The notes under the pieces: generated by a model | The model's database searches: none | The model's input: the letters and a program-made list of their open reading frames with translations, nothing else | What the model was told of the DNA's origin: nothing | Position numbers and translations under genes: made by a program | NCBI GenBank assembly: GCA_002633005.1 | Contig: NMRA01000378.1 | Coordinates: 363,329 to 427,328 of the forward strand | Source of the DNA: Phoronis australis | Taxonomy: Eukaryota > Animalia > Phoronida | Reading direction: 5' to 3' | DNA: 64,000 nucleotides | In this document: in pieces, positions 13,882 through 45,769 of the stretch | Layout of the letters: every line of letters starts with the position of its first letter | Numbering within the stretch: position 1 is the stretch's first letter

Positions 13882-16800
13882 TCATTCTGGAACAACTTCA
13901 CCCAGCCATTTCAAATATGGAGGATTTCCATCGTTAATCTGCAATGTCAAAAATGTGTTAAATACAGTTTCATAAAGCCGTTCCCTCTAGGATCTTTCAA
14001 ATTCCACCTCAATTTATGAATCCCAAGCCCCCGTACTCGGACTCCCCCCAGCCCAACAACAGTGTCCGCACATATCATAACCACTACACCCTTACAAGAG
14101 AACTAAGTAGCAGCACACCTGCCAAAATTCACAACAGTGAAAAAGCAGGGTGTGGTGCCTGACAAACAGCGTGGGAAATAGGGATAAATCAGAAAAAGGG
14201 CAAAACTGCAGTTATAACAAATACGTCAATTTCACCCTTCATTTCAAAAATCAGAATACCATCATAGTTGATACAGAACAAAGACTCAAAAAGCGGGGCA
14301 GTCCTGTGAAAGCAGGACAGTTGGGAAATATAAAACCGTGTTTTGTTGCTTTAAACAAAATTGATTGCGTAACTTGCACCACTGTCCCTGAGAGATAAAA
14401 GCGGCAACATGATCTGTGCATAACGAAGTGAAGCATGTCATGTGACACAAGCGCCATCTTTCCACATACAATGATATTATTGTTCCAGCAGGTCAATGTT
14501 GTTTAGAACTTTCAAATTTGCTCAAATAGAGAATATTCGTTACTAAGAAATAGCTGATCTGGAAGTGATGACATGTGTTCATTACGTAATTTGGAGTACG
14601 AACTAATGACAAGAATGTTCACTCAAAACAGCATAATCTGGCAACAGAGGGAACCACTACTGCACCCAGTTGTGAATCAATTCCGTTGAGACTATGGACG
14701 AAACCGCTGTACACTTTACACGTCACGGTATGGTTCTTATGGTTCCAAAAGGGATCTTTACTCACAATACTTTTATTATTTAAATTGAACCCAGTAATAC
14801 ACACAGTCTCAAAAACAAAACAGGTTTAGCATTTGCGTAGGTAGAGATTTGTGTGAAATGAACAGTGTTGTGAGAATTTTACACTCAGTGGACAACTTAG
14901 ACCTGTCCTGTTCTACACAGTGACAGCAATGGTTTCCTACTGGGCATTTGACAAAAGAGCTTTCACTTGGTTTCAGAAGCAATACATTCAATGACTTACT
15001 AGTGTCGACGTCACTTGGCAGACATCATACGGATGGTTCTTACTGAAAGGGATGAACAAGTTCAGAATAGATTAATTATGCGATGATCCACACATGAGGA
15101 GCCCAACATTCTTTATGTATTGAAGTAACCTACAGTGTTCACCCGAGTTAACGCCCATCATATAGTTTCCACTTTTAGACCCCTCCATCAACATGGATTG
15201 GTCCCTTCACACCTCCTCTCACATCAGCCTGAATCAACCATACAAGAATACACTCCCACCTCCAGCTAAACCCCTGGACAACACAAATAACATTAAAGTA
15301 ATCGTTTCCAAAATTAAAATTCCTTTAATAATTTTACTAACCTGACTAAGTCTGCCAACTGCTTCACCTTGCTTGTCCTGGTTTTGACAACCTGAAGAGA
15401 ATTGGGCACATTAGAAACACATGCAGGCTGGACAGACAGGCTGGAAGGCTGAACAGGCAGACTAGACAGACAGGCTGGATGGGTAGGCTGAACAGGCAGA
15501 CTAGACAAACAGGCAGGATGGGTAGACTGAACAGGCAGACTAGACGAACAGGTAGGAGGGACAGGCTGAACAGACAGACTAGACTGACAGGCTAGATGGG
15601 TAGACTGAACAGGCAGACTAGACAAACAGGCAGGATGGGTAGACTGAACAGACAGACTAAACAGACATACCTCCTCTGACTAACATCCACCTTACAGACA
15701 CTACACACCTACATGTAGGACTCATGAAAACACTGAAACAGTCACCAGACATGTCCATGTCACTTTTGCCTTGTATTAACAGTGAAATATTAGCAATGCA
15801 TCACCTTCAGTTGCTAAATATTCATTGTCGTTAGTTCTTGAAGCAAACAATGTGAGGTGCAACAGATCTTACCAACATAAGCTCGTTGTCTTCTTCGATT
15901 TTACTTTCCCACTCATATCTGAAACATAATGAGTTGAATAATTTGATAATGTTACCAAGCAACAAAATACAATGGGATCTAAGATCACAGAACACAGTCA
16001 TGTTTTACTCAACTGGGTTTAAGTTGAATACTAATAACCTTGCGGCCAGAGGCACACTGCTGCAATGTACGTATGCCTTTTAAGAATGATTCCATATAAA
16101 AACCATATGAAAATGAAAAATCACAATATACTAAAAAATTCATACAGAACTAATATTTTGTGCATGTTTTGGGATGCTGGCCCAAAGTGCACTGCACTCG
16201 ATGACCTTTGGTTAGTGAGATATGACCTATTTGGCTATAAAAGCATATTTTGCATTTTTTCATGTCACTTTTGGAACGGCAAAAGATCAAACTTGGAAAA
16301 CTGGTGACAAAGTTTGACATTGGTGGTCATAACGACACATGTAAAGTTGGTAAGAAAATGAAATTTGAAACTCATAGGTACATTTAAATTTTCAGCAGGG
16401 GAGAAAACTCCAAGACCACTTTTCAGGCCAGTCACAAGTGGCAAGATGTTGCTTAACCTGCCTGCTATATCGGAATATATTTGAAGTTGAAATTCTCTTT
16501 GTAGACACTTCTAAGATTGAACGTTGATAATTTCTTTTAAAAAAACTTGTCTCTTATATATTTAGTATTAAACGTGGCCCTCGAATTTGGGCATTTTTGT
16601 GATGTGGCCTTACTCTGACTGACAAGAGAACTGAGGCTACTCTTTTAGTTTAGAGATATCACCTAAAATATGTGATCTAATAACAACAATGCAATATCAC
16701 AAAACTTTAAGTTTCACTTTTGAGACCCCAATTTTCTGAAACACTCTGTTTAACTTTACCAATAGCACTTAAGGGTTCGAAATTACATGCACTACCTAGT

Positions 16801-19800: not shown

Positions 19801-21726
19801 GTTTAGCGTAGATTAAGTTACAATAGCATTGTCATTTAGTTCCTGCTATACATTAGCAGAGTTAGGAGCACGCAAATACATCTTCCATGTGGTGTAGTGT
19901 GGAGTCTACACAACTTACTGTGGAGTAGTGTACAACGTAAGTGGGGTAGTGTAGATTGCACTCAATTTAACATAACGTGCCAACTATTTACTCTATGTAA
20001 CTTACAGTGGGATAATGTAGATTGCACTAGATTTAACATAACGTGCAAACTATTTACTCTATGTAACTTACAGTGGGATAGTGTAGATTGCACTCAATTT
20101 AACATAACGTGCCAACTATTTACTCTACGTAACTTACAGTGGGATAGTGTAGATTGCACTCAATTTAACATAACGTGCAAACTATTTACTCTATGTAACT
20201 TACAGTGGGGTAGTGAAGATTAAACTCTATTTAACATAACGTGCCAACTATTTACTCTACGTAACTTACTGTGGGATAGTGTAGATTGCACTCAATTTAA
20301 CATAACGTGCCAACTATTTACTCTATGTAACTTACAGTGGGGTAATGAAGATTGCACTCAATTTAACATAACGTGCCAACTATTTACTCTACGTAACTTA
20401 CTGTGGGATAGTGTAGATTGCACTCAATTTAACATAACGTGCCAACTATTTACTCTATGTAACTTACAGTGGGGTAATGAAGATTGCACTCAATTTAACA
20501 TAACATGCACAACTATTTACTCTACGTAACTTACTGTGGGGTAGTGTAGATTGCACTCAATTTAACATAACGTGCACAACTATTTACTCTACGTAACTTA
20601 CTGTGGGATAGTGTAGATTGCACTCAATTTAACAACTTACTGAGCAAGTGTCTTGGCAACATGCAAATCAGGAGCTGTGATGAAAGCAACTGAGAACTCC
20701 CCCGGCATCGCTGCAGATGTCATAGCTGCCACACTGGAATAGACCCGTCGAATTATATAGCCAACCAGAGGCATGGAAAGCACACTGATGCACAAAAGGA
20801 TCTACAAAAATAACAAACATATACTTCTCATAAACCATCTGAGGCAATTGTACCAGCTGTGGTATACCGTGCCTCCCGTTCAGTAATTCTAGAACCTCGC
20901 TAAAAATCAAGACTTCACAAGATTATGTGAGATACTGCCGTGTACTTTAAATGAGAACAATTGACTTTGACTAGATTTAAGCTAGGTCCTAGCGTTGGTC
21001 CTAGCGTCTACTGAACGCACGCCTGAATAAAAGTTATTTACTTAAAAATACAGTGAATACCATCAAAAGAATCACACATTGACAAGCAATTACTACATAA
21101 TCAGGGCTTGGCATAACGAGCTGCAGGTCACATTTGCGACCCGAAATTTGGAAATGCGAGCTTAGATTTTTTCCAGTTAGTATCAAGTCGCAAAATGCGA
21201 CCTAGAATTTCCAATGTATGCCAGCTGAGTTTTTACACTTCTTGGCAGATACTAGGCAAATATAAAGCAACTTGTGTGAATCTGACCGTAATGTGCTTGT
21301 TGCCAAATCAAGATCAAAAGAACACTACGCGAAAACAGCCCTCCAGATGCCTTGCAAGCATGTCGTGTGAACATGAGATAATGCAGATTCGATCTTTGAC
21401 GTGTTTCATTAGCTAACATTTTCGGCTACGTTTGCAAATATCCGGATGTGTCGAAGAAAGTTTCTGACCACGGTGTTAAAACGTCACAAAACAGCGGAGT
21501 TTCTACTCTTAGACGATCAACTTGCCAAAGTTTGTGGTGGAAGCCTATTTATTTTTGACGGAAGATGTCCTAATTATCAAATATCCTGAACTGGTAAACA
21601 AAAGTGATTCAGTGCAATGCAAGGGTGACCAAGAATTACACAAGCATCTATAATGTGCTAGTAAGTAAGCAAGCAAGCAAGTGCATGATTATCATAAAAC
21701 CTTACACAAGCAGACCTTGCGATCAT
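13882..21726 (-). CDS. CUTA: CutA divalent-cation tolerance homolog
   Basis: Minus-strand exons: 20641-20801 (ILLCISVLSMPL...PGEFSVAFITAPDLHVAKTLA), 15873-15918 (YEWESKIEEDNELML), 15342-15391 (VVKTRTSKVKQLADLV), 15000-15042 (KNHPYDVCQVTSTL), 13882-13938 (INDGNPPYLKWLGEVVPE*); GT-AG sites, phases consistent. The first exon 21706-21726 (MIARSAC) is tentative. The expected LAACVN-type exon was not found and probably lies in gap 18837-19085. Confidence 0.93.
15420..15670. repeat. GACA-derived ~36-bp minisatellite in a CutA intron
   Basis: Repeated ggatgggtagactgaacaggcagactagacaaacagg; it produces the spurious low-complexity part of ORF 15314-15625. Confidence 0.9.
18837..19085. other. Assembly gap
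   Basis: Run of N. Confidence 1.
19086..19360 (-). repeat. 66-bp satellite array, inverted relative to 19905-20635
   Basis: About 4 near-identical units running into the N-gap; reverse complement of the downstream unit. Confidence 0.95.
19905..20640 (+). repeat. 66-bp satellite array (~11 units)
   Basis: Unit aacttacagtgggatagtgtagattgcactcaatttaacataacgtgccaactatttactctacgt; abuts the CutA splice donor. Confidence 0.97.
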
Positions 21727-22222: not shown

Positions 22223-23886
22223 ATAGACCCTATTCACGCGGCGGCCATTAAGATCCAAAGCGAGGCTCACTGCGATAAACAAAGCGAAAGTAGACATTGC
22301 GTGAGTTAAATAGCCGGTCTTTCGAGTCCAACCTGGATATTAAATTTTAATTATGTGTCGACAATTAACCACAGAGACGTGGAAAATTACATTAGATAAC
22401 AAGTTAAGGCGACAAAGAGTTGTCTGACGAAAGGATTTTTTTTTTCGGAAAACTAGGTTCGAGCATAGCCTGATCCTATGCACTCACTGGGACTAACAGT
22501 TGATTTGTCATTGGTCTGAAAGAACAATTGATGTTATTAAATATATTTTTATTAAAATAAAAAACCAGGCTCGTAATTGAAAATAAAAATTATTTGACCA
22601 TCAATGCTTTCTTGGTTGTAATAATTCTTACGTCTATTTCATGTGTTAGATAAATATCAATCTGGACCAAGGTGAATTTTAAAATTAAAACACCTAATTC
22701 GTTCGTCCAAAACATAACGTTTTAGAACTCAGTTTCAGTTAACTGGACAATGCAATCATAGTTATCATGTTTCTGAAGGAGCCTCTTTCATCCGAGGGGA
22801 ACGGTGCCAGTGCCTACTGAGAGGCGATTTTTTCGCCGAGTGAGGGCGGGAACAATCTACCTCCCGATCACCATCAATAGCACCCCCGCCCTGTTGCAAG
22901 CTCTCATAGGCTCTGCCTCAATTTAAAGTAGCCTTTTGTGCTCTNNNNNNNNNNNNNNNNNNNNNNNNNNNNNNNNNNNNNNNNNNNNNNNNNNNNNNNN
23001 NNNNNNNNNNNNNNNNNNNNNNNNNNNNNNNNNNNNNNNNNNNNNNNNNNNNNNNNNNNNNNNNNNNNNNNNNNNNNNNNNNNNNNNNNNNNNNNNNNNN
23101 NNNNNNNNNNNNNNNNNNNNNNNNNNNNNNNNNNNNNNNNNNNNNNNNNNNNNNNNNNNNNNNNNNNNNNNNNNNNNNNNNNNNNNNNNNNNNNNNNNNN
23201 NNNNNNNNNNNNNNNNNNNNNNNNNNNNNNNNNNNNNNNNNNNNNNNNNNNNNNNNNNNNNNNNNNNNNNNNNNNNNNNNNNNNNNNNNNNNNNNNNNNN
23301 NNNNNNNNNNNNNNNNNNNNNNNNNNNNNNNNNNNNNNNNNNNNNNNNNNNNNNNNNNNNNNNNNNNNNNNNNNNNNNNNNNNNNNNNNNNNNNNNNNNN
23401 NNNNNNNNNNNNNNNNNNNNNNNNNNNNNNNNNNNNNNNNNNNNNNNNNNNNNNNNNNNNNNNNCCGCCCTGGTTGCGCACTTCTAGTCAGCAATTCGCA
23501 CCCGAACTCAAAAATGGGATCTGATACAATTTGAGGGGGGGCATGCCCCCCCCCCCAATCCGTAGTCATGAAAACAGCCTGGCTGGCCCATTCTCCGGTC
23601 GTTACTATGATGCTTAACAACTGACCGACATGCGACAAAATATGATCTAACTTTTCGAAAACGTTTATAAATTTTACATATTTTGCTCCGTCGCGGCAAC
23701 GACCCAACGCTTCCGAATCTCAACGTCTTTAGAGATTGTGAAGCAGACAGTTGCGAGTCCGTATTTTTTCAAGCCGTTCGCGGAACAACACGGTCTGAAA
23801 CACAGAACTATGCCGATAACCTAACAGAGCTATCGTAGCGAGCCTCGTTTTGAAATGCGCCTCCTGTCGGCGTGAATAGGGTCTAT
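22223..23886. mobile_element. Non-autonomous TIR DNA element spanning the second gap
   Basis: Perfect 17-bp inverted termini atagaccctattcacgc / gcgtgaatagggtctat plus imperfect subterminal inverted repeats; no clear TSD; family not assigned. Confidence 0.65.
22945..23464. other. Assembly gap
   Basis: Run of N. Confidence 1.
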
Positions 23887-24599: not shown

Positions 24600-26260
24600 A
24601 TGAGAAAGCAGGTGTATTTTTAGAAACATTACAAAACGCCAGGAATCAAACGATATGTGTCGAGAAATTATGAGCTGTGTTGATAATGACATAAATGAGA
24701 GTGTTAAAGGCTTAGTGGACTTGCTCCAGTCATGTGGAGCGGGCATGCTCGTGAGGCAAGACAGGTGTGTAAGTGAAACACGTAGACGTGCATGGTTTGA
24801 CAGTGAATGTAAAGAGATGCAACTACAAAAGAAGCGTCTACTGCAAAAATTTAGGGTGTCTCGGAGTGACTTAGAGCTGAGAACTCTTGCTAGTAGAAAT
24901 GAATACAAAAAGTTATGTAAGAGGAAAAAACGATACTATGTCGATAAACAAAATGAGTTATGGGAGTCAGTGGAGAATCCTAAAACATTTTGGAATATTA
25001 TAAAACAAAGCCTGTCTTAGCCAGTACATACTACAAAGCCTGATAATTTACTGAATTGGAGTGGTTTAGATATTTCAGTAACCTGCTTGATATCAACAGA
25101 ACAGAGGGTCGCAGTGAAACTTTTGATGACCTAGTTAGACAGACTCTTGATGAGCATGACGCAGTACAGTGTGAGCGTTGCAGTCACCCACAGAGTGAAC
25201 GTGACGTAACTGGTGCCTTTTACACGAATGAACTAAATGCCGGTATTAGCGCAGATGAAATAGTAAGGGCCATTAAGAAACAAAATTACAATAAATTTCC
25301 CGGAGAAGACGGCATACTGGATGAATTCTGTAAGTGCTTCCTGAGGCGCTAGTAGAACTTCAACACAAACTTTTTGATAGAATTTTCAATACCAGGCATT
25401 ATCCATCCCAATGGTCAAAAAGTATTATTGTGCCGTGTTACAAAAGGGAGACAGATTTAATTCAAATAATTATAGAGGGATCTCCGTTATTTATAGTATT
25501 AATAAAATTTTTAAAACTATTCGTTATTCCCGTGTAGTTGAATGGTCAAATAACACGAAATGTATCCCGGAAGAACAAGCAGGCTTTAGGACTGGGTGCT
25601 CTACAATCGATAACATTTTTAACCTACAGTGTGTCATCCAGAAACATGTCACAAAAGGGAAGGGGAAAGTACATAGTGCATTCGTTGATTTGAGTAAGGC
25701 ATTTGATATTTTATTTTATGCCCTTTTAACCAAAGGTTTGCATGGAAAAATGTTTAACATTTTGCGCCGTATGAACGACTCTATACAATCGTGTGTTATG
25801 ATACTGTCTCAGACCACGCCCTATTTTAACTGTACAGTTGGTGTCCGGCAAAGATGTGTTTTAAGTCCCTGGCTGTTCTCGGTGTTTGTTAGCACACTAG
25901 TGTCTGATATTAGAGAAAATGTAGGCAGAGGTATACGTGTCTCTCCGGGATGTGAAATAGTTTCTCTGTTTTCGGCTGATGATTTAGTGCTGGTGTCGAA
26001 TACTGTTGCTGGGGTACAGATGAAGTTCAATATCCCTGAAAAGCTTTGTCGAGATTAGAATTTGCAAGTTAATTTTGAGAAAACGAATGTTGTGGTATTT
26101 AAGCGAGGGGGCATACTTTCCAATACTGAAAGATGGGTTTTTGGCAATAAGAAAGTAGATACTAAATCGTACTACAAGTACCTAGGAGTCACATTCTCCT
26201 GCAGACATAAGTGTTGTGCAACATAATTGGGCTAATTGCCAAACCACCAGGCAACAGCTG
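24600..26260 (+). mobile_element. Decayed non-LTR retrotransposon (LINE) ORF2 reverse transcriptase
   Basis: Frameshifted ORFs 24655-26058 with WFDSECK, PGEDGI, NNYRGISV, PEEQAGFRTGCSTIDNIF, FVDLSKAFD, GVRQRCVLSPWLF, LFSADDLVL, then YKYLGVTF. Confidence 0.95.
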
Positions 26261-27445
26261 GATTTTGAGGTAAGCCAAGTGTTCAACAATGGTGGACTCT
26301 TAGGTGCTCCGGGAGTCAGATGTTGGCACTACTGTCTAAAAGATCACGCGGAATTAGGCAGTGTGATCGTTTTGGAAGGCAGTGCGGCATGTACTGCACT
26401 GTACATGAGAAAAGTAGAGGGTAATGTATCTTTCAAAGGATGGTTGTCTGTCAAAATTAAGGTGTGCATATATTGGGTGATGGTGTTTTGTCATTTTGTA
26501 TAAATTAGCCGGGCAATTTGCAGTTATTGCTCATCAGAAAAGTTTTGGAAACATTATAATTACGAAATAAGAAGTTTGATCAAAATACGCCATATTTTCA
26601 CTGCACCCCGCCCAATACCCGTATCGTTTATGACATTTCACAACTCACGCAATTTCTCACCACGTGCTTCTTGACAGGAGGTCTTTCCGACAGTTTTCAT
26701 ATAATCGGCTAATAAAGCGTCAGTACATTTGTTGGCTCATCAGATTTTGTGAGATTTTTAACATTCTCCAAACATTTGTGTGCTGTCAGTTTTTGAAGGG
26801 CATTATTTCATTGTAACCATTTGAATGAGCAAGTCATTATGTTAGTAGAAAATAATCGGATTTATAAATAGTCTCCTTTTAAAACTTAAAATGATACAAG
26901 GTCAAATATAATAAAGTTCTTGGTTCTGGACTGCAACTAACATTTTTTGAAACCTGCATCCGCTGCCAGAAAGAGAACGCCTGCCCCCAAAATTTCGCAT
27001 TGCAAACGTATTTAAAACAGTTGTTGGCCAGCTTAACAACAACAACCTTTTTCTTAGTTGTAAGTGGTGCTCTTTCTAACACCCAGGCCCGGTCCCAAAC
27101 ATTTAAAGGGCCGAATAAAAATTGATTTGAGGCCCTTCCCTGCTGATTTATCACGCCCATGACTAATGTGCGTTAAGGTTATGCAGGACTTTAGCGAAAT
27201 TTCCATTTTTGGCAAATTCCGGCCCTCCGTATCTCAGAGATGGGTGATCGGATTCACTCATAATAAGTTTTTCAGATATGCAACGTTCTCCACGACAGCG
27301 TTAGGGATTGTTTTTTAAAAATTCTTCTTTTATATGAGGGTCTATCAAATTTTTGGCATTTGATGATTGTTATGAAAAACTCAAAATGAAATGTAGAAAA
27401 CTGCTTCAGAGTTTTCGAGATTTCAGCTAGCGTTCTTTATTAAAC

Positions 27446-29189: not shown

Positions 29190-30210
29190 GCCACACAATA
29201 GACGAGATTTTTGTCCAAGCTGAAGACTAAATTAAACATCGCGCAAAGTAGTAGCTTGGTTTACCTGGTGAACTGCAGCGATTTCCCTGAGTTTTACGTT
29301 GGCATGGCCACTCGGATTTTGCATCAAAGACAGGCTGAACACAAGAGAGACATCAGCAGTGTCTCGTCAACACTAGTTACATGTACACTTGAGAGAAAAA
29401 CGTTACATAATCTACTAAGTTAAAGGCACATGCAGGCGTAAACAGTATCGCGGGAGAGTGTGCTTGTATGTGTGTGGGGTGGGTGGGGGAACAAAATTTG
29501 AGTGCAACCTCCCGCCGGCTGCAGTTTGTTTTCCGCCACCACCCGGTTTCTCCTGAGGTTGATTCCACCTGCACCCCGTTGACACGAATTATGCCGCCAG
29601 ACAACGGTTTTACCTGCGCACCCTCCGGGGGTTCCTGGTGCGCTGCGTACTAGGAGTCCAATGTTGAAACATGGTGACGCGAGTTTTCACTGGCTTCTGC
29701 CAGGCGGGGCAAATGGTTTAAATTTGTCCAATTTTCACCAATCTGCTTTAAAATGCATCGAAACACCAATCTTCTAGAGGGTAATTATTTTAAACTGTCA
29801 GACATTACCTGGTGCATTTTTGTTGATGGATTTTTCAAAATTTCACTCTGCATCCTCAATTGCTAACACAGTTAGCGTATAACAGCATAAAAATTGTGCT
29901 GAATAAATGGACTTTCTTAGGTAACGAAACATGTGAGTCAGAATCCTAGATCGATTTTCTCGGTCGTGACAATAACCATGTCCAACTCTTAATCGGCGGT
30001 GCCTTTCACAAACGGGCGCTCCATGCTTAGGAATGTCGGAGCATAGGCTATGCTGGAGTTGTGGTGGATACATTTAGTATTTTGTTGACAGGTCCTGTAT
30101 TATGCACTATCATGTGAAGTGAGCATCTGTAACGGTATTCTGTTCTTTTCTGTTTGACTATTGTACGTGAAGATGATATATGCTTAACATCGAAACGTCG
30201 TTTTTTTGCT
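29190..30210 (+). mobile_element. Penelope-like retroelement 3' remnant (GIY-YIG endonuclease plus terminal hammerhead), interrupted by an insertion
   Basis: LVYLVNCSDFPEFYVGMATRILHQRQAEHKR at 29211-29390 matches the Penelope GIY-YIG pattern; it resumes as LGRDNNHVQLLI at ~29958; degenerate hammerhead at 30164-30201. Confidence 0.8.
29393..29945. repeat. ~550-bp dispersed repeat, second copy at ~31100-31955 (with an internal insertion at ~31320-31610)
   Basis: Collinear similarity, e.g. gttgattccacc.gcacc.ccgttgacac and aataaatggactttcttagg in both copies. Confidence 0.85.
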
Positions 30211-30275
30211 GTGCACTCAAGCATCTTTTTGTTTGCACTTCTTCCATCGAATTTGGCGAAATTCTAACATCAGTT

Positions 30276-30299
30276 ACACACACACGCACACGCACACGC

Positions 30300-30333
<34 letters not shown>
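30276..30333. repeat. (CA)n/(CACACG)n microsatellite
   Basis: Directly visible. Confidence 0.98.
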
Positions 30334-30335
<2 letters not shown>

Positions 30336-30832
30336 AACCATGTAATAAAACACCGTGTGTCATTCCAAACGTAAGAGAGGACGATGGGGAATCAAGAATC
30401 GACAGAAGCTAATAAACGTTTTTCTCAACTGCACTCATATATTAAAGGTGTATGATTCCCGACGTTTTCTTGTTTTGCTAAAAAAATTCTAAAACTTTGC
30501 CCGAATCTGGGAGCCGACTGTCTCCTCCTCCAGCTCACATCTGCCCAGTATTTACGAAGCTGTATCTCCCTTATAAAGTCCTGTAAGACGTTAGGTAGGA
30601 CTTCACAGACCACATGTTCCTTGTTCTCAAGTTCGTCTTGGGTATCAGTATCTGAGTATTTGGGCCGGATGAGTACCTAGTGACAGTAAATTGGTTAAAA
30701 TTTTGTTTTTAAATGTCAACATCTGAATTTAAAATTCATGAATTGTTCTAACACTCAATTTTGGGCCTACGTGAGCCTCAAAATACTGCTGCGTCATACT
30801 AGCCGGTAATTATGCGACAAAAAATGACCGCG

Positions 30833-31084
30833 TTGTTTACGCAGTCATTTTAGTAGATCAAAAGCAGGAAAAGTTTATTGAGTAAACAAAACGTTTATCG
30901 ACTTCAATATTCCAATTAGCCAATTAATAAAGTTGAAAACCGCAGGACAATACAAACACAAGGAAACAGAAATTGCCTTAGTTTCCAAATTATTGTTTAC
31001 CAACTCATTACAGTTGCTCGACTATAAAACGTGCTAAGTGGTTGTGTTATGATCAACCTTGCAGAAGCGAGCGTAGACAACAGT
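30833..31084 (+). promoter_or_regulatory. Candidate defensin promoter and short non-coding exon 1
   Basis: TTGTTTAC 30833-30840, GTAAACAA 30882-30889, TTGTTTAC 30993-31000, TATAAAA 31023-31029, Inr-like TCA at 31053-31055, strong donor GTAAGT at 31085. The ATG exon at 33601 begins with an acceptor, so an upstream exon must exist. Confidence 0.55.
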
Positions 31085-32349
31085 GTAAGTATGGTAGTTA
31101 GAAAAAACGTTACTCTACTGATTTAAAGACACACGTATTCGTAAATAGAAACGTAGGAAAGTGTGCGTGTATGTGTGTGGGAACAAGATTTGCGCGCAAC
31201 CTCCCCTTCAGCTGCAGTTTGTTCTCCGCCACCAACACGGTTTCGCCCGAAGTTGATTCCACCGGCACCCCCGTTGACACCGATTGTGCAGCCAGACAAG
31301 GGTTTCACCTGCGCCCCCTCCTTGATTGCTTTAGTAAGCCCGCCGTAGGAAGGTAATCATTATTGAAGAGGGTGTGAGCACAAACTAATCCAGCTTCGTC
31401 AAACCTGTGCCCCCGTGGTACTGCAAAATCCGGAAGAATGTGGGGAAACCGGTATTACCTTTGAATGAATAGACGGAACATTTTCTCGAAAACCACGGTT
31501 GGTTTCTTCAATTTACGGGAACAAAAATGGGGCCCTGAGAGTCTACTTTGGGGAAAGTTCACTTCATTAGAATTGTGCTTTGAAGGGTACATTTTAGAAT
31601 GTTACGCTTCGGGGGTTCCAGGTACGCTGCCCAGTAGGTGTTCAATGTTGAGACATGGTGACGCGAGTTTTACAGGCTACTGCCAGGCAGAGCAAATAGT
31701 AGAAAACTGTCCAATTTTCATCAATCTACTTCAAAATGGATCAAAACTCCAATTTCCTAGAAGGTAATTATTTCAAACTGGCAGGAATTACCTGGCGCAT
31801 TTTTGTGGATAGAGATTTTTCAGAATTTCACCCTGCATCAATGTACGTACACTACATGTATGCATCATCAATTAACACCCGGTTAGCGTATAACAGTATA
31901 AAAATTGCGCTGAATAAATGGACTTTCTTAGGCAAAGAAACATGTAAATCAGAATCAAAGCTTGCAGGTTGCAAGAGATTATTACCTTGTTGGGCCGTCA
32001 TGTGGAAAGGCAATATAAAAACTAAAGGTAGACACGGTGCATATTTCCTGCCAACTGTCGCAGGACTTTTTGAAATCTGTGATTCGCAGTATGGATTTTT
32101 TGGGCATTCTCACAGAGACTCTTGCAGCTACTTGACTGTCTAGCTGTGCTTGGGAGCTCTTCAGAACTCGAGTTACACAGGCTATCTAGGAGACTCAGGG
32201 TGTGCAGAAAAAAACAACGGAATATTTATTCACATTTGCTTCTGTTGGTACCTGTTAATACAGTCGGGTAATTGTTGTGATATTAAATGTTTTTATAAAG
32301 AATATCTTGGAGAAAATAATGCGAACGCTTATTTTTATTCACATTTCAT

Positions 32350-33200
32350 TTCGATATAATGTACTCGTTTCTCCTTAATGTGATCGGGCATTAAACCTCC
32401 GCCACAGCTCTGATTGATATTACTGATAACTTCCCTTGACAGGAGACGCCTTGTAGATGCTGCGTTTTTGTTCCTGAAAAAGGCCTTTGACACGGTTCAT
32501 CATGGTTGTCTCTCAAACATGCTGGGTGTGGAGGGGTGTGGTTTGGGTGCTATCTCTCAGGTGCTGCCTCTCAGGTAGCACCTGAACACCTCTCGATGTA
32601 CAAATGTAAATGGCCACTATACAGATTTTGTGACTGTCTACTAATGGGTTCTGCTAGAATCCATACCATGCCCTACTACTCAGTTTGTATTTAAATCATT
32701 GGGCGTTGTAATGTTATTGGAGGCAGCAAAGTTGAGATGTACATGTACAACGACAACACAGCATGTGTTTATACTGGTCATTCAAAGTCGGACGTTGAAA
32801 ATACTCTTAAAACTAACTTAATACATGTTTTTCAAGGACTAGATGACAACAGTAGATTACATGTAAATGCTAAAATAACCGCGGTTATATGGTTTCTTTT
32901 TCACCAAAAGTTTAAACTTGCAACATTCCTTGATTTTTGCGTTAATAAGTCTTCTCTGGAGTGTGTGTTAATAATATGAAATATTTAGGTATTTTTCTTG
33001 CTAGACACATTTTCTGGGCCGTACATGTCGATTTCATTTACTCTAAAGTGACTCAGATGTAAACTCTCTTAAACTATTGTACAATCATATCTTTAGTTTT
33101 GTCATGGTTAGAATATTGTGATGTTGTTTCGCATACACGGTCTATTTGCAGCCAAATAAATATACGAGTATTGACTCTTTGCACCCCAGTTTGGGCTGGC
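32350..33200 (+). mobile_element. Highly decayed CR1/L2-type LINE RT fragment
   Basis: FLFLKKAFDTVHH (~32465-32503), MYNDNT (YADDT equivalent, ~32743), KYLGIFL (~32979). Confidence 0.7.
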
Positions 33201-33611
33201 TCAAATTGGATGTCCATAATAGAAATACTCGGTATAATTACTCTGGCGATATCTTTTCTCCTAAAACCAGAAGTAATTTTCATAAACACTCATTCTTATA
33301 CTGTGGTGTGTTGCCATGAAGCAGTTTACATGTACCTATTGGCCTCCGTCAAAGTAATTGTAGTAATATTTTCAAGTCCAGGTACACGTGTGATATTCGA
33401 TGGTTTTAACATCTTCAAATGTATACTTGTCTTTTACGCAAGCGTGTCAGATTTCTTGTTAACGTTATAATTGTACATATAAATTCTTCTGATACCATCT
33501 TGTCAACTAGATTTTTAACATTTTTTTCTGTTCAGAACCATTCGGAACACCAGATTTATAACTGAATCGATTTTATCCTGACGAAATTTTTCTTCTACAG
33601 GAAACTGAATC

Positions 33612-33693
33612 ATGAAGTGCGTCGCGGTATTCATTGTATTGATGTTGGCTGTGGGCTGCCTCCAGGCGCTGCCGGTAGATGGCGAAGACGACG
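33612..33693 (+). CDS. Defensin precursor coding exon 1: signal peptide and acidic propeptide
   Basis: Acceptor ttcttctacag at 33600; MKCVAVFIVLMLAVGCLQALPVDGEDD; phase-1 donor G|gtgaga. Confidence 0.88.
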
Positions 33694-35772
33694 GTGAGAG
33701 CGAAAAGGGTCTTCACCCTGAGCAGCGTTTTGAAAGAATTTCGCAAGTGAAGCTAGTGAGATGACGCGAAGTGCTTGCTATACCTGACGAGACCTCGCGA
33801 GGTCTTGCGTTTTCGCGAGTTTTTTGAGACTGTGGCGGCTGAGTTTGGTCGAGCTTGCAACGTGGATAATTTTTTTGAGTAACACTTTAACTTTAAAACT
33901 GCATTTTGTCCAACAATTAACCAGCCTAAAGAAAATCGAATTAGAACTTTTCCTCTAATATAGGTCTCAGAACATTTCTTACGGCGATGGGGTTCTATTT
34001 CCGTTACCAACTAAAATATCGAAACCATTAACTACTCAAAAACGCTTCAGAACACGTTAGGGTTTGACAACCTTAAAAATTTGGATTAAAAAATGATGCA
34101 TGAATGCATTGCCTGGGACTTAAGTTTACAATCGTGAACATGTTTTGAAACCTATTCGAGTGATAGTGGTGACGTACATATGTCTTTATTATTACGCGAT
34201 CTAGACCCAGAAATTGGAATAGAATTGCACAGTCAAAATATTGAAAATTTTGTAGGTCTTGGATTTTTTTCCCGGTTCAAGTAACCACGGGGTGCAAATA
34301 AGCACTTGAGTTTTTTCTATAAAATTGTGTGTTTGGATTAATCACTGTTGTCCGACAACGGTTGTCACACCCATTGCATGCTCCCGGAGGGTGCGGAATG
34401 GAGGATTAGTATTGATCAGGTCCATATCCAGGTAACAATTTTTGAAGAGTTTTTAAGTATCTTACAGAGCTACGTAAATTTGGTCTACTTATCATTGTTT
34501 TATCATTTTGGCATATTAATTGTATTTGACTGGAACCATAGCGTCAAAATGACGTCACACTAATCAGCTTAATAGCGTTTCAGTTCAAAAGTATTGACCG
34601 CTAAGCTTCGGTGAAATGTAGCTTTGGAATTTTCCGTGTTCCTTTCTATTTAGACGTATACAGGGTTTCGACCCAATTTAGTACCGATACTTCAAGTAAA
34701 AATCTCAAGGAAAATAGGTAGACTATATTGATCGCTACTTCGTCTGTTAACTGAAAAATGGTCAGCTTGAAAGTAGATAATGATGCTGTTGAGATGTACT
34801 TAGCCGAAAATGATATCTCAAGCTACATTTCAATCGTGGAAAACAAAATGCGTTCACAGACACTGACCTAATTTCATGACTCGATTGATCTGACGGGTCA
34901 CACAAATGAAATCAATCGACTTCAATCAACTAATCAATCAAATTATTTCTGTAGTAAAGGCGATAGGTCCACTGTACAAAATTTGCCATTTAGCAGAACC
35001 GGACGACCCAAGAGTATAATCGTATTGCCTAAGTACATGTACGTAGGATTCATTGTAGCTAAGGCGGGATTATGAGCAATCAACTTCAAACGGATCAAAG
35101 AAAACAATGAGGCACAAAAGTCGCAGTACTACATTTTACGCTGTAATACAATCTAAACTTTCAGTTCCCCCGTAGATCGGTTCCATTCACGTACGCTATG
35201 GATTTCAACGTAAACAGGAAAGTTTCCATCCTAGACTCCATGAGCTCTTTGTCCAAACAACAAAAAATTAGAAAAAAAATATTTTAAACGTACTTTAGAA
35301 AATGCAACGCGTACTGAATGTTCACTGTCGTAGTCGTCCTTCTAAAGGCTTTTATCAACCGCTCTTTTTATCGAACTAATTTTGAATTGAAATTATGCAC
35401 ATGTTATAGGCCTGCCGTGAGTTAACGGCAGCAGAGGCAAGTTGGAAAGTTATCACTGAAAGCTTCAAAGCTAGGGTAGTCAACCTGTGTCCCTTGCGAA
35501 GTGGACGGCTGTTCTCGTTACTAGTATTCCGTCTGCTCCATATACAATCCTTAGTTTTTTCGTCGCGGAACACGCCCCCTGCCGCCGCAATAGACAATTC
35601 AAACTTTTGTTATACCACATCCAGTAGCGCATTTTATCTTCGCTTTCTACATTCCGCTTGGGTTATTTGAACGTAGCACACCCGAACCTCGGCCACGGGT
35701 CTAAACTGTACACTTCTGCAGTTAGTCGTGAAACTGAAGTCTGTTAAAAGTAAATAATGCTCACTATTTCAG

Positions 35773-35906
35773 TTGCTCTGCAAAGAACCCGCAGAATAAC
35801 GTGTGACCTTCTTGGAAGCCAATTTTTGTGCGTAATGCATTGCTACGGACATGGCAGAAGTGGCGGATACTGTAACTCTCAAGGGGTGTGTGTCTGTCGG
35901 CGATAA
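35773..35906 (+). CDS. Defensin precursor coding exon 2: RTRR convertase site and mature insect-type CS-alpha-beta defensin
   Basis: Acceptor tatttcag; (V)ALQRTRR-ITCDLLGSQFLCVMHCYGHGRSGGYCNSQGVCVCRR*; Cys spacing C-x8-C-x3-C-x9-C-x5-C-x-C; xTCDLL start and GGYC core; phase matches the signal exon; donor gtatgt 1 nt after the stop. Confidence 0.95.
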
Positions 35907-36371
35907 GGTATGTATATTGTATGCTGCTGTGATTGGTGAGAACGCTTTTAGTCATTATACATGTAGACAGATTAGCTGGATAATTTGCAGTCACTGATAA
36001 ACATAATAGCTTGTTCTCCATGTTATCTTTAAAAGAAAGACGACGTATTATTAAAGGCCTAATATGGTGACTATTTTTACTTCTAAAATATATTTATTGA
36101 TGAAAAACATCAAAATACTGTGTCATAGCTGCAGTGGCGGATCTAGGATATCACAAGGGGGAGGACAACATTTTGTCTGTAAATATTTGCTCCACGCCCG
36201 ATTGTAGATGTGCATAGCACCGAATGGGGGGAGGTCGGGAGAGGGGCTTGCCCCCCTGAAATTTTTCTGTTTTTTCTTCCAAAAATCAAGCGTTTTCCTT
36301 GATTCCCGAATTATTATCCAAGAACAAAGGCAAAAAAGCGAAGAAAGTGTCAACCAACAAAAACTGAGAGT

Positions 36372-36427
36372 ACCACGGACTCGAACTCACGAATAGAACA
36401 CGCGTGCTTTATCACTGCACCACCACG
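36372..36427 (-). mobile_element. tRNA-derived SINE-like head
   Basis: Minus-strand A-box-like TGGTGCAGTGA and B-box GTTCGAGTCC; no complete cloverleaf. Confidence 0.4.
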
Positions 36428-36532
36428 ATTTAACTCCCAAATTGATACTAAGAGACCTACTTATTTATTTAAATCAGTTTATGGTCACAATAAGACCAAA
36501 AACCGTAAGAGATACATACAATATGTATATAT

Positions 36533-36574
36533 ATTCAACGTTTCGTCTTTTCATTAGACATCATCAGGATCATA
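36533..36574 (-). ncRNA. Identical minimal hammerhead ribozyme on the minus strand
   Basis: 36533-36580 is the perfect 48-bp reverse complement of 36719-36766. Confidence 0.7.
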
Positions 36575-36621
36575 TTTACAACAATTTAGGACAACGAGTG
36601 CCAACATACATAGAGTGAAGT

Positions 36622-36623
<2 letters not shown>

Positions 36624-36697
<74 letters not shown>
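36624..36697. repeat. (TA)n microsatellite
   Basis: Directly visible, at the centre of the palindrome. Confidence 0.99.
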
Positions 36698-36701
<4 letters not shown>

Positions 36702-36724
36702 TCACTTCACTCTATGGATGTAAA

Positions 36725-36766
36725 TATGATCCTGATGATGTCTAATGAAAAGACGAAACGTTGAAT
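36725..36766 (+). ncRNA. Minimal type I hammerhead ribozyme (Penelope terminal-repeat type)
   Basis: CUGAUGA (36732-36738), extra U, stem II GUCU/AGAC, GAAA (36755-36758), then CGUU; helix III vestigial. Confidence 0.7.
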
Positions 36767-38732
36767 TGAACATGAAGTTTTTTATTTGTGCGGCGATCGT
36801 CCGGTTTTTGATCTACTTATTTATGGTCCACAGCGTTTGCACGCGAAAACTCTTTCTTTTTTGTAATGCTTATTACATGTTTCATATTTTGTGCAATCAG
36901 TTCGTAACAAATTTGTTGTATTTAAAATAGTCTTCAATTGCCCAAAAGACCAAATTCGTTTTTGTGTTGGCAACAATGACGCGATTGCTTTGGAAATCGC
37001 CTTAAGTAAAGGTTTGACAAAGAGAGAATTATGAGTTTCTGAGTGATTCACCAGAGCTTCGATTAAAATTGACATCTTGCCAGCAGCTTCTGTTTTTTCA
37101 CCATCACTCAGAGTCTAGTATCTTTAAAAAATGAAGTAATTTTCTTCATTACACAGTGGAGCAGACGACGGAAACGGAGTCGTAGTGCCCAGCGCCACTG
37201 CCGGTCGCCTGAGATATCGCGGGAGAGCCTATACTTAGCCATAGTTGCGTTACGATTGCGCCGTGTTCCGAATTTGACACTTGAAATTGGATCTGAGCCC
37301 CCCCCAAACATTGAAACTGCACACATTTAAATCTTGTTTCAGTCGTATAATTTCAATTACCGGGGATAATTAATAAATTCAACATTTCCCTATGCTCTTG
37401 CTGTTTTCTTTTTTTGCGGCAGCCAAGGGGGGGGGGAGGCGGGCCCCCTGCCCCCCACATCCGCCTATGGCATACCACAGTCGTTAATTACGGAAGCCTT
37501 TGACACTGCAGTAGCCCCATCACGAACCCCATTTAGCGCCAAAAAACTTGAGATGGCGCTTGCACTAATCGATGTCTATGACATCATCGTTACAACGAAT
37601 TTGGCTTTCACAATGTTTCCATTGTATTGGAATCAGCGACGAGTAGTCCTTTAAAATTAGAACAAAATAAGTGTAAAATCATGGAAACACGTTAATTGTT
37701 TATTTCATGTCATTCAATATTAAAGTTGATCAAAATCATTACCTTTAGAATTTTTCATTCAATTATTTAGCGCGCATCCTAATACGGGTCCGTATGGGAG
37801 TCACAGGAGGATTACTGGGGTCGCCGAAACAGCCGAAAAAAAAAACTCTTCGCCCGAATTGTTATCATTCAATTTCACAATGTTTATTATAGTGTAGTTT
37901 GTTTGATACAAAAACTTTGATATTAGGAACTTTGCATTGACGTCTTCTTGAAGACGAGGGTGTGAACGCTGCGCAATTCCGATACGGGCCGCCGTCGAGT
38001 GTGTGTCCCGTATAATAGAATTGGAGACAGTGGGCCGTTTAATTTGGTGCAAAATACGTGGACACATTACAACACATATCAGCTTGATCTTTTCGTACAA
38101 AGCAATTATATTCACATTCACTGACAATTTTGTATTTGAAACTCAATTTTCAAAATTATTCGCCCTGAAATACTGCAACCCGCAGTCTCCGCAGTTGTGA
38201 GTATCTGCAATGAATTAAAGTATGAATTGATTGCATGGAAACATTCCGAATTATAAAGATTTGTAATCAATTGCACGTTTTTAATTCAATCAAAAATATA
38301 TTCCGATATGGGCCGCCAGTATCTGAATTCCGTTAGGCCTATGGGAACGACCCAAGTCAGAATATTCCGATTTGGGCCGGATTCACTATACGCCGGGCCG
38401 GAACAGTAACACGAAACGTCGAAGTGCGCACTGCAAATCTTAATTGTAGCCAGTCAGATAGCTCAATAGGAGTAAGGGAAATCTGCATACACAGCAATGA
38501 CTCTCAGCTCTATGTTCATCTCTGATTTTTTTCGCATTTGACACATGTATCCACATTGTTGCCGGAAATCTATTCTCTGACCTACAACTACATGTATAAC
38601 CCAGACTTGTAGGTTGAAATTTCTTCACTCTACCTCAGTATGTACTCAGCTCAAGTGTCTTTCATTTTGTGCTCGAGTTTAGTCAGGATTGTAATTACAT
38701 ACAGGTAATTACCATTTAGATTTTATTTTCAG

Positions 38733-38810
38733 GCAATTGGTTGGTCAACGGCACGGATGACATTTGAAACTTACACAGTTTAATAAATGTACTGACGACC
38801 ATGGAAAAAT
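38733..38810 (+). other. Defensin 3'-UTR exon with polyadenylation signal
   Basis: Acceptor ttttattttcag at 38732 and AATAAA at 38782-38787; both are conserved in the paralogous block at 45156-45210. Confidence 0.65.
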
Positions 38811-39624
38811 AAATATCTTTCAAAGGCACTTTCATTTGTTTCGTGACTGCTGCATTTCTCGCTCCATGAATGTCGATGACTGCGAGTGTGAATTCTAATC
38901 ATCTTCAAAACGCGTTTGTGGACCATGTTATAAAATCCTCAATGCAGTACTGTTGAAGTCTGTAAAAAGGCCATGCTGTGGTCATCGTTATTCATAAATG
39001 CCAGCGAAGACGGAGAGCTACGGCCTGATCATCTGTCTGTCACAAGTCTTGATACATGTAGCTGAGCTGAGGTGCGTCACGTCAATGCCAGAGCAATTGA
39101 ATGAAGCGGCAGTAAATCTGAAATTTTCATATATAAACCTGAGCTGTCAGCTCAACTACCTTTCGAGACACACGAATGGGCTTGTAGCCGTCCGTGGTGT
39201 ATGTCCCTAGGCAGACATCACAGGCGCCTGTAATTCCAGTCTAATGAATACATGTAGTTTAGGACAACGTGAAAGTCGCACTGGTCTAACGTATCCATAT
39301 AACTGTTGCATTTTACCTTTTATGCTTGCTTTTCGATGCAGTTTTGGTTTTGGTGAGTGCTCAAGGCCTGGAAAACAAACGTATTTATTTATTATTGTAA
39401 TATTTACAATAAGGATAGACCCATCAGTGGCCACGGGGCCCTCAGTAAAAACATACAAAGATACTAAGACAAACAAACAGAATTACAAAATGAAAGGCAA
39501 GTTTTAAATGATCAACAATGAATTTGAAACTGACATGGATAGACTGATGAAACAAAATAAATGATAATAAACAATAAACAGAAGATACGAAACGAAAGAT
39601 AACATGATTAAATAAAAATAAAAA

Positions 39625-40540
39625 TAGATTATTACATGGCGAAGTCGTTATCCCCCGTATTCTAGAGCCCTCGTGGATTTTGGAGAATTATCGCCCGAGG
39701 GGCTTCAGCTCCGAAGGCGATAATTCTCCAAAATCCACGAGGGCTCTAGAAAAGGGGCATAACAACTGAGAACATGTAATAATCTACATTGTATTTATAC
39801 TACATACTAAACGAGAAACAATTCAATGAATCGATCTACCTTTCTCGACTAGCCTCGGCTTTGTAACTACTTTCTATGTCAAAGGCCCGGGGACGGAGGT
39901 CGTGAGCTTTTAAGAAAAGCCGAGCTATTTTTGTCAAATAATGCTTTTACTCAAAACCAATTGAAAATTTAAACAAAATAGAAATAGAATGAATCTTTAA
40001 ATTAAGGTTTAGCAACTATTATAGCTCACTACACATTTTATCATGCCAAGCTTCGACCGGGAAAATATCGTCTGCTAAAGTAGGTTACCACTGGTAACTG
40101 ATTATAATGCTCAATTCAAAGGATCCCGACGACACGATACCTTATTCAAATAGGAGATCGGTGATTTACAAGTGAGAGAACATGAGAGAAAAAAGTCACT
40201 GAAGTAAAATATCGTTTTTATGGAAATCATGCGTCTTATTTTTCAAAGCTTATGAATGTCGATACAATGCCCTTTGCTGAACATGCGGTCGTTGCTCGTG
40301 CTCATTTAAGTATTCTTTTTTCACGTTTGATGTCGTCAGCCGCTGAGTGGTGTAGTCGACGACTCGAAACTCTTGCGGCCCAGGTTCGAAACTCTTGCGG
40401 CCCGGGTTCAAAACTCTTGCGGGCCGGGTTCGAAACCGGCCTCGGTTCCCGCCAAAATGTTATCTCACTAGTGAGATAACTAAATGGTTTATTACACTGT
40501 TGTATTTGCCATTCGAGGCTAATATTGTAGTATAAATATG
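39625..40540. mobile_element. Hairpin-bearing non-autonomous element (Crypton-like, tentative)
   Basis: Perfect 36-bp inverted repeat 39660-39695/39716-39751 inside tagattattacatg/catgtaataatcta; palindrome gttatctcactagtgagataac at ~40459-40480; absent from the paralogous block at ~49720-49760. Confidence 0.6.
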
Positions 40541-43500: not shown

Positions 43501-45769
43501 TGTATATTATCAAGCATGTAAAATGGATCGCTACTACCAATACATGCTCTTATGTAAATGACCAGTGATTTGTTTGTTGATTGTCGTTTCATTGGAGAGC
43601 AATCTCTACAATTCCTCAATTAAGTTGCATTGGGCTCTTCTCATTTGGAAAAATCCGTTGCACTGCCCAACAGCTGCGTGTACATGTAGGTACCGCGAGG
43701 GCTTCAAAGAACACATCTGAAATGAAGCTTTTACTTTTTACGACTCACTCCCGAGTTCTGCCAATGCCTCATCGAAGCATTACTGGCGGTGGCGCGCCGA
43801 AATGTTCGGCAACAATGCTGTTGTCAGCATAGCAGCTCATTGATACTGTAAGCTATCGCATCCAGAAGACTGCGTCCCACGAAACCATCACTTAAAATAC
43901 GGAACAGTGCGTGGGGTATACATTGAAATGTAAAAAGGTGGTTGGCTGCGTCTACGCGCGCCTGCGCTTCTCTACGCCAGTACTGTCCACGAGTACAATC
44001 AACTGGATCACTGAGGCTTGAGAAAATAGCGCACCACTTTAACGCATTATGTGATAGACCAGAGCCCATTGTGCCGTTTCAGGCTAACCAAGATCTGATC
44101 AAATCTTAGACATATGTCTGAAAGGCTTGGTTTCTACTTTCCTAATACTGCGTAGAGTTTAATAACACTAGTACTGTAGTTCGATGAAAAACCACGAGTT
44201 CGCGAGATTACGCGAAGTATTGCATTGCATTTTAAATGAAAACACGTGGTTGATTTTGGCTACATTTTTCAAGTCGCGAGACTGCAACTGGACTCTACCT
44301 TGTTTCGTACGACACAGCATGTAGTGCAGAGTCTAGTGGCAGTTTATTGAACAGCAAGACGGTGTCAGCAAGATGATGATGAGAGACAATTCGGAACCAA
44401 TGCACGGTTGCCTTCATGAAACTTTCCGATGTACGACTCCAGTTATCTAAGTTTACTGCGGAGTTTGGAAAAACCTATTGTCCATTCTTATACCGTTTTA
44501 GTGTTACTTCTAAGTCAAATCGAGAGTGAACTATAAGTTGAATTCTAAATTTTGTGGAACATAAGTAGAGAACTGTTAACTCATGGCAACGCCCAAGATT
44601 TTTGGACTAAGCCTCTATTTATTTTCGAATTATTTTCATCGAACTAAAGACTCGATTTTAGTCATATTACCAGAGCTTGTCATGAATCAGAAGGAGCTCA
44701 TGATAAAGATAAGGTGATAGAAAGAGATTGCTCGTGCGAGTTATGAAAGACCCAAGTAAGCAAAATTATAAATCACAACTAATGGATTTTGTTACGAAAT
44801 TACTTTTCCGACGTTTTCCGTTCTCTCCGTCCTTATTCTAAGAGAGGTTCTTGCAGTTTTTGTCTGTGGAAATCGACAGAAGGTGACGAATTTTATGCGT
44901 GAACCAGACGGCGTTGCAAAGTCGAGAAAGTTACTTTGTTTTCATTTTCAAAAGTTGTGACTGATGATTTTTTCGCACTGGGACCCGCAACACTGCTTCC
45001 GGAAATCTGTTCTACGAACTTAAACTACATGTATAATTTTGGCTTGTATTTTGAAACTTCTCCACTCTACCACAGTCTGTACTCAACAAAAGTACCTTTT
45101 ATTTTGTGCTCTAGCATATGACGATTGTAATTAATGTTTAATACTTTATTTTCAGTGAATTGGTAAGTCAACGACGTGGACGACATTCGAAATTTACACA
45201 GATTAATAAATGTACTGAACACCAAGGCAAATTAAAGATACTGTCATACTGACTTTCATGTGACTCTTTATTGCTACCCTTCTCACTCCCATGAATATCG
45301 ATGGCTGCGAGTTTGAATTTCGATCAACTTCAAAACGAGGTTGAAGCAGTGAACACCTGGACACATTGCATTCTCGGGGAATAGTTGCCGTCGCAGTTAC
45401 AAAAGAGATATGTACGCTGAATTGATGAAGGTCCCGTTCTTGCAAAACAACGCCTGAAGAATGGTGAAAAACGAAAATGTGGCAGGGTCAATTTCGCACC
45501 AAAAACCTTGAAGTAGGGTGCATTTTTCCTTTTTTTTCCATTGTGTCCATTATCATCTTTGTTCTTTTTCGTCGGGCTCTATTTCTCTTCATTTTTTTCA
45601 CTGTTTTGTTAAGTTCACTGTTTTCTGTTCTTTCTCTTTCTGTCTTTTTGTCTGTCTTGTACAGCTCTTTTCTTTTTGTGTCCATCTGTTGAATTTTAGT
45701 GTCATCTGGTGATAGACTTGTGCATGTCTTCCTTTTTTTCTCACGTAGTATTCTGATTTCTTCTGTATC

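What the first reader, a model, noticed from the sequence alone, without database searches (positions are those of the whole stretch)
33612..35906. Hidden gene for a short-loop insect-type defensin (71-aa prepropeptide, 36-aa mature peptide)
Seen: two small exons splice in phase to MKCVAVFIVLMLAVGCLQALPVDGEDDVALQRTRR/ITCDLLGSQFLCVMHCYGHGRSGGYCNSQGVCVCRR, i.e. signal peptide, acidic propiece, furin-type RTRR and a six-Cys CS-alpha-beta scaffold. Known: xTCDLL...HC...GGYC...VCVCR is the phormicin/sapecin class; from recall, an abalone defensin also starts VTCDLL. Inference: the first loop is short (8 residues versus 12 in phormicin), hydrophobic, and the net charge is low (3 Arg, 1 Asp, 2 His), so activity could be pH-dependent. 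Both exons fall below ORF-calling thresholds, so the gene may be unannotated.
Basis: partly seen in the sequence, partly recalled or inferred. Interest (0 to 1): 0.85.

Follow-up and report, generated by a model that had tools for sequence, protein, structure and literature searches.

The report
Expressed short-loop insect-type defensin gene
A real, heavily transcribed four-exon animal gene encodes a small six-cysteine defensin of a common, well-known type that likely acts as a secreted antibiotic against Gram-positive bacteria; it is a new family member rather than a new kind.

Summary
The gene is real. Stranded RNA reads cross the predicted 33693/35773 GT-AG junction 1260, 2253 and 2753 times in 3 of 3 raw-read runs. 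They also show two further non-coding exons (31066-31084, 38733-38825). The 36-residue mature peptide scores 37.2 bits on Pfam Defensin_2 (cut-off 20.4) and is predicted to fold as CS-alpha-beta (pLDDT 89). Of 61 parsed homologues, 32 have the same 8-3-9-5-1 cysteine spacing, and +2 is their commonest charge (12 of 32). Chironomus defensin A has the same length, spacing and charge and kills Gram-positive bacteria. The nearest solved structure is the assassin-fly venom peptide Dg3b (58% identical). No near-identical protein was found (best 24 of 36). A neighbouring ATF6 exon also found nothing, so the whole species may be absent from the collection; 'missed by annotation' is not shown. The host is unidentified, probably a non-insect invertebrate (inference). 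Such defensins are already reported from abalone, mussels and amphioxus. Reads point to about three expressed paralogues, and a decayed copy lies upstream. Activity, target and pH dependence are untested.

The parts
31023..31029 (+). TATA box (TATAAAA)
   Evidence: Sequence, 43 nt upstream of the pile-up of read ends at 31066; promoter role inferred
31066..31084 (+). Exon 1, 5' UTR only (true start may lie a few bases further up)
   Evidence: Joint 31084-33601 GT..AG, 133/340/405 reads; 68/145/159 molecules end at 31066
33601..33693 (+). Exon 2: 11 nt UTR, ATG 33612, predicted 19-aa signal peptide and first half of the propeptide
   Evidence: hydropathy and -3/-1 rule
35773..35907 (+). Exon 3: rest of propeptide with R-T-R-R site, whole mature defensin (35796-35903), stop 35904-35906, donor 1 nt after the stop
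38733..38825 (+). Exon 4, 3' UTR with AATAAA at 38782 and 38808; poly(A) site near 38825
   Evidence: Joint 35907-38733 GT..AG, 790/1522/1553 sense reads; 46/100/72 molecules begin at 38825; signals
26319..26468 (+). Decayed paralogous copy of exon 3 (internal stop, one Cys lost, donor position kept)
   Evidence: blastn 67%, E 4e-6; nhmmer E 2.8e-9, score 99.5 vs shuffle maximum 34.5; translation; no Pfam hit on its first 26 aa
29396..29945 (+). Duplicated piece of intron 1 (78% to 31103-31321 and 31604-31956)
44990..45343 (+). Orphan copy of exon 4 and flank (75-79%); no coding exon found beside it

Best explanation
This is a spliced, highly transcribed gene for a six-cysteine cis-defensin of the XTCD (insect-type) group with the common 8-residue first loop, which is likely secreted, cut after its R-T-R-R site and likely kills Gram-positive bacteria by binding lipid II or anionic membrane lipids. 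Shown: four-exon transcript, reading frame, cysteine framework, family profile match, high junction counts. Predicted: CS-alpha-beta fold, signal cleavage after residue 19. Inferred from relatives: furin-type processing, disulfides 1-4/2-5/3-6, antibacterial role and target. Read loose ends and decayed copies indicate a small gene family turning over by duplication.
For: Junction reads in 3 of 3 raw-read runs. That is about 44x (X2) and 105x (X3) the median of ten ATF6 junctions in the same runs (likeness thresholds 90 vs 92). Pfam 37.2 bits vs 20.4 cut-off. AlphaFold helix 8-18 plus two strands, pLDDT 88.7 alone and 85.4 with 23 rows. The top seven Foldseek rows are Dg3b and insect defensins. 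Of 65 library hits, 61 parse as six-Cys defensins, and the RxK/RR site precedes the mature peptide in 28 of 59. Chironomus defensin A: 36 aa, +2, same spacing, Gram-positive active (PMC5506212 Table 1; 19 of 36 identical by eye). The XTCD peptide lucifensin binds lipid II; sapecin binds cardiolipin (PMC12284004).
Against: No activity or peptide-level data. The closest solved relative, Dg3b, is a venom peptide whose PDB title calls it a neurotoxin. No Foldseek match reached E 0.001 (best 1.6e-3) and the best VIA Z was 5.1, to drosomycin, as expected for 36 residues. Several plectasin lipid-II residues are not kept in XTCD peptides, whose binding mode is unresolved. The position of sapecin Arg23, proposed to pair with Asp4 in oligomers, is His here (3 of 61 hits). 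Tissue and infection state of the runs are unknown.
Confidence: 0.75

Rival explanations
1. An acid-switched defensin: His15 and His19 would gain charge in acidic compartments (gut, phagosome, mucus), His19 standing in for sapecin's Arg23, so killing would need low pH.
For: Calculated charge +1.9 at pH 7.4, +3.5 at pH 5.5. His at Cys3+3 in only 3 of 61 hits; Lys/Arg in 29. Asp4-Arg23 oligomer model for sapecin.
Against: His15 is near-invariant in the family. Leu, Met, Gln or Ile occupy the position in 27 of 61 hits, so charge there is not required. The Phlebotomus defensin has His there and is listed as Gram-positive active (assay pH not seen).
Confidence: 0.2
2. A defensin recruited as an ion-channel toxin or secretion component, like Dg3b.
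For: 58% identity, same length and spacing as Dg3b. A short loop is said to ease channel access. Very high expression.
Against: The K-C-x-N scorpion-toxin signature is absent (Y-C-N), and absent in 61 of 61 hits; Dg3b lacks it too, so this does not fully exclude the idea. Ten hits are closer than or as close as Dg3b, including ordinary dipteran and beetle defensins. No sign that the host is venomous.
Confidence: 0.07
3. Mainly antifungal, or a shaper of resident microbiota, rather than an anti-Gram-positive effector.
For: Best VIA match is drosomycin (Z 5.1, rmsd 1.0, 35 aligned). Hydrophobic, low-charge surface.
Against: Sequence relatives are XTCD antibacterial defensins; drosomycin is 28-29% identical and has four disulfides. 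Z values within 1 are tied.
Confidence: 0.1
4. Artefact: chance ORF, pseudogene or insect contamination of the assembly.
For: All but one of the named hits are insects. An N gap (22945-23464) separates the gene from CutA and ATF6.
Against: Thousands of canonical spliced sense reads at three introns, in the same runs that splice ATF6. Intact frame. A local decayed paralogue and duplicated UTR and intron pieces.
Confidence: 0.02

Closest known systems
Chironomus plumosus defensin A (PMC5506212 Table 1)
   Same: 36 aa, net +2, 8-3-9-5-1 spacing, xTCD start, CRR end; 19 of 36 identical by eye
   Different: Ala-Ala-His helix versus Val-Met-His; Arg versus His at Cys3+3; its Gram-positive activity is measured, this peptide's is not
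U-Asilidin12-Dg3b, PDB 6PX8 (assassin-fly venom)
   Same: Best PDB sequence hit (E 8e-11) and Foldseek hit (TM 0.79); 21 of 36 identical, same spacing
   Different: Dg3b is +4 and abundant in venom; no evidence of a venom role here
Phormicin / sapecin / lucifensin (classical insect-type, XTCD group)
   Same: xTCDLL, His before Cys3, GGYC, VCVCR, prepro architecture
   Different: Loop 1 of 12 versus 8; 40 versus 36 aa; double-Ala helix and Arg23 absent
Short-loop defensins of midges and beetles (Polypedilum KAG5678523, Mayetiola defensin I, Zophobas tenecin-1-like XP_063903644)
   Same: Same spacing, 20-23 of 36 identical; the Zophobas peptide also has G-H-G after Cys3
   Different: Signal and propeptides unrelated beyond composition
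Non-insect insect-type defensins: Haliotis discus D3UAH2, Branchiostoma floridae XP_002596529, two 'arthropod-like' genes of B. belcheri
   Same: Precedent for this class outside insects
   Different: Abalone spacing 16-3-9-4-1. The B. floridae gene has a phase-0 intron in the c-loop; this gene keeps the mature peptide in one exon. Their sequences were not seen.

Membership tests
Arthropod (CS-alpha-beta, cis) defensin, Pfam PF01097 | Six Cys: C-x(4-16)-C-x3-C...C...C-x-C | tested here: met
   8-3-9-5-1; range from PMC5506212
Arthropod (CS-alpha-beta, cis) defensin, Pfam PF01097 | Profile score above curated cut-off | tested here: met
   37.2 vs 20.4 bits
Arthropod (CS-alpha-beta, cis) defensin, Pfam PF01097 | Loop-helix-two-strand fold | tested here: met
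   Predicted only; top Foldseek rows are defensins, prob 1.00
Arthropod (CS-alpha-beta, cis) defensin, Pfam PF01097 | Disulfides 1-4, 2-5, 3-6 | not testable with these tools
   Inferred from spacing and fold; model coordinates not inspected
Arthropod (CS-alpha-beta, cis) defensin, Pfam PF01097 | Signal peptide, propeptide, dibasic site | tested here: met
   Hydrophobic residues 3-14, -3/-1 site after residue 19, R-T-R-R; SignalP not available
Arthropod (CS-alpha-beta, cis) defensin, Pfam PF01097 | Antimicrobial activity | not testable with these tools
   Needs synthesis and MIC
XTCD subgroup (PMC12284004) | xTCD plus two aliphatic residues; His before Cys3 | tested here: met
XTCD subgroup (PMC12284004) | Extended first loop; double-Ala propensity in helix | tested here: inconclusive
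   Loop 8 and Val-Met here, but 35 of 61 hits, nearly all xTCD or xSCD, also have loop 8; the paper gives tendencies
GXGCP / ancient invertebrate-type defensins | G-aromatic-G-C-P N-terminus | tested here: not met
Scorpion K+-channel toxin-like | K-C-x-N in the gamma-core with short loop | tested here: not met
   Y-C-N here
Asilidin-12 venom peptides | Presence in venom of an asilid fly | not testable with these tools
   58% identity only; host and tissue unknown
Orthologue of B. floridae XP_002596529 | Phase-0 intron in the c-loop | tested here: not met
   Mature peptide lies in one exon

The most novel reading that the evidence does not exclude
The host is a non-arthropod, and this gene, with the five tandem short-loop xTCD copies in a jellyfish gene model (P0003, Sanderia malayensis), shows that the short-loop XTCD defensin is the ancient animal form, older than bilaterians, not an invention of recent insects; long-loop phormicins and fly venom Dg3b would derive from it, and His19 would make this member acid-activated.
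Probability: 0.3. Interest if true: 0.5.

Novelty: new member of a known kind. Interest (0 to 1): 0.3.

Why it matters
It adds a verified, strongly expressed antimicrobial-peptide candidate of only 36 residues, easy to synthesise, in the XTCD group whose lipid II binding mode is an acknowledged gap (PMC12284004). If the host is a non-arthropod, it adds to evidence that 'insect-type' defensins are old and under-annotated in other animals. By itself it changes no concept.

Tried and rejected
Word-index protein searches found nothing: exon-3 peptide at 23-76 aa, no candidate; at 77-2000 aa, 0 of 1 scored; an ATF6 exon, 0 of 15 scored (weak by the tool's own note). No genome is held for this window. 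The run search listed no holder on record as RNA; the raw-read runs came by species label. Earlier findings: none in three look-ups. Full-text search for three motifs of the peptide gave 2 unrelated papers. Subscription journals, figure alignments (such as Fig. S2 of PMC4165938) and bioRxiv supplements are not covered, so a prior description is not excluded. Zhu 2014 (PMID 24425781) and PMC11138386 are not held. Host placement failed: abalone paper passages gave nothing, TACATGTA enrichment found no supporting paper, Rfam gave 0 matches. Two of the three paralogue motifs were searched in the window, 0 matches each. No kB or GATA consensus in 766 nt upstream. Four of 65 library hits (P0004, P0032, P0059, P0062) are repetitive non-defensins and were dropped before counts. 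No tree was built: 36 residues give little support. No complex was predicted.

Full report
Observation. ATG at 33612, a GTGAGA donor after 33693 and a ...TTTCAG acceptor before 35773 give a 216-nt frame of 71 codons plus stop. The mature part (35796-35903) has six Cys spaced 8-3-9-5-1, 3 Arg, 1 Asp and 2 His. The six-Cys pattern occurs once in the window's six frames and in 1 of 100 shuffled windows. Pfam Defensin_2 scores 37.2 bits against a cut-off of 20.4.

Expression and gene anatomy. Four runs were laid on 30000-40000. The coding junction is crossed by 1260, 2253 and 2753 sense reads in X2, X3 and X4 (three samples, one study, about a fifth of each read) and by one contig in X1. Two more GT-AG introns appear: 31084-33601 (133/340/405 reads) and 35907-38733 (790/1522/1553). 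The mRNA is therefore about 340 nt in four exons. There is a TATA box at 31023, a donor 1 nt after the stop, and a 3' end near 38825, 17 nt after AATAAA. Ten junctions of the neighbouring ATF6 gene have 21-46 reads in X2 and 12-30 in X3, so the defensin is about 44- and 105-fold higher by median. Tissue and infection state are unknown, so 'constitutive' is not shown.

Family context. Reads that match exon 2 only in part go on into three other sequences (200-520 reads each, table 7). By my translation, one propeptide ends E-R-G-R-R, one Q-R-T-R-R-C, and one is of a different type. These point to about three expressed paralogues. The two motifs searched are not in the window. A decayed copy of exon 3 lies at 26319-26468 beside a reverse-transcriptase remnant. 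Pieces of intron 1 and exon 4 are duplicated at 29.4-29.9 kb and 45.0-45.3 kb.

Structure. AlphaFold gives loop, helix 8-18 and strands 23-26 and 31-35 (pLDDT 88.7 alone, 85.4 with 23 rows). Foldseek ranks Dg3b (TM 0.79), lucifensin, an Anopheles mutant, sapecin and phormicin first, none at E 0.001 or better. The wide VIA search gives drosomycin Z 5.1 and Dg3b Z 4.3, effectively tied. By sequence the best PDB hit is Dg3b, E 8e-11.

Is the short loop or low charge unusual? No. HMMER over 1.84 billion representatives gave 65 hits; 61 parse as six-Cys defensins. Loop 1 is 8 in 35 of 61, and 32 have exactly this spacing, at 16-24 of 36 identities. Charges run from -1 to +8 with +2 commonest (12 of 32). 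The set is biased towards the query but shows the type is common. Thirty hits were looked up by name in three calls. The informative names are Diptera or Coleoptera, apart from one jellyfish gene model; most are unnamed. Chironomus defensin A (36 aa, +2, same spacing) is active on Gram-positive bacteria (PMC5506212 section 4). One less common feature is His at Cys3+3 (3 of 61), where sapecin has the Arg23 proposed to pair with Asp4. This gives the pH idea a concrete site. But 27 of 61 hits have Leu, Met, Gln or Ile there, and an active Phlebotomus defensin has His.

Mechanism. Most likely: signal cleavage after residue 19 (hydropathy and -3/-1 rule), furin-type cut after R-T-R-R (inferred; same motif in 28 of 59 hits), oxidation to the CS-alpha-beta fold, secretion, and killing of Gram-positive bacteria through lipid II or anionic lipids. 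Lucifensin binds lipid II and sapecin binds cardiolipin, while the XTCD binding mode is unresolved. The K-C-x-N channel-toxin signature is absent. All steps after translation are inferred.

Host and novelty. The host was not identified. ATF6 has at least 11 read-joined exons and a GC3 of 61%, window CpG o/e is 0.79, and TACATGTA is enriched 23 versus 2.6. From my own recall these fit a marine non-insect invertebrate; no call confirms it. No protein close to the defensin is in the 90% collection, but neither was ATF6 found, so absence may reflect the species. PMC12284004 finds XTCD peptides only in recent insect orders among 123 peptides. Insect-type defensins are, however, already stated for mussels and amphioxus, B. 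floridae, B. belcheri, and a defensin is listed for abalone. A non-insect host would be a further case, not a first.

Papers seen. Passages: PMC6266666, PMC11116330, PMC12466427, PMC7203481, PMC8465606, PMC11209139, PMC9022979, PMC12373286. Passages plus supplement hits: PMC5116183, PMC4165938 (legend only; the alignment is a picture). Passages plus a named section: PMC5506212 (section 4, part 1 of 2), PMC12284004 (section 8). Not seen: Zhu 2014, Zhu 2005, the Dg3b structure paper (PDB title only), the original Chironomus and abalone papers.

Verdict. Observation confirmed and extended; interpretation partly supported. New member of a known kind; interest 0.3.

Noticed in passing
window 200-13300 (+): ATF6-like bZIP gene with at least 11 exons joined by reads. 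Reads show a 59-nt back-jump at 12012-11954 in the 3' UTR (about 300 reads per run), probably a tandem duplication missing from the reference.
   Followed up: partly
window 13900-20800 (-): CutA-like gene, tail-to-tail with ATF6 (weak PDB hit E 0.9). From recall, human ATF6B and CUTA both lie in the MHC region, so this defensin may sit in proto-MHC-like synteny; a paper search gave no support.
   Followed up: partly
protein P0003 (EukProt, Sanderia malayensis): A jellyfish gene model with five tandem copies of a short-loop xTCD prepro-defensin, probably a fused gene cluster; a cnidarian insect-type defensin if not contamination.
   Followed up: no
window 33601-33693, read loose ends: About three expressed paralogues share the signal-peptide exon but differ after it; they differ in abundance between runs X2/X3 and X4.
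   Followed up: partly
window 24600-26060 (+): Broken non-LTR retrotransposon (RVT_1, E 5e-15) directly before the decayed defensin exon.
   Followed up: no
window 19086-20634: Two inverted arrays of a 66-bp unit (4.2 and 10.5 copies) within the CutA-like gene, beside an N gap.
   Followed up: no
whole window: Palindrome TACATGTA occurs 23 times against 2.6 expected.
   Followed up: partly
window 36100-37700 and 39400-40000: Repeats drawing reads on both strands, including a 234-bp inverted repeat with an AT microsatellite centre in intron 3.
   Followed up: no
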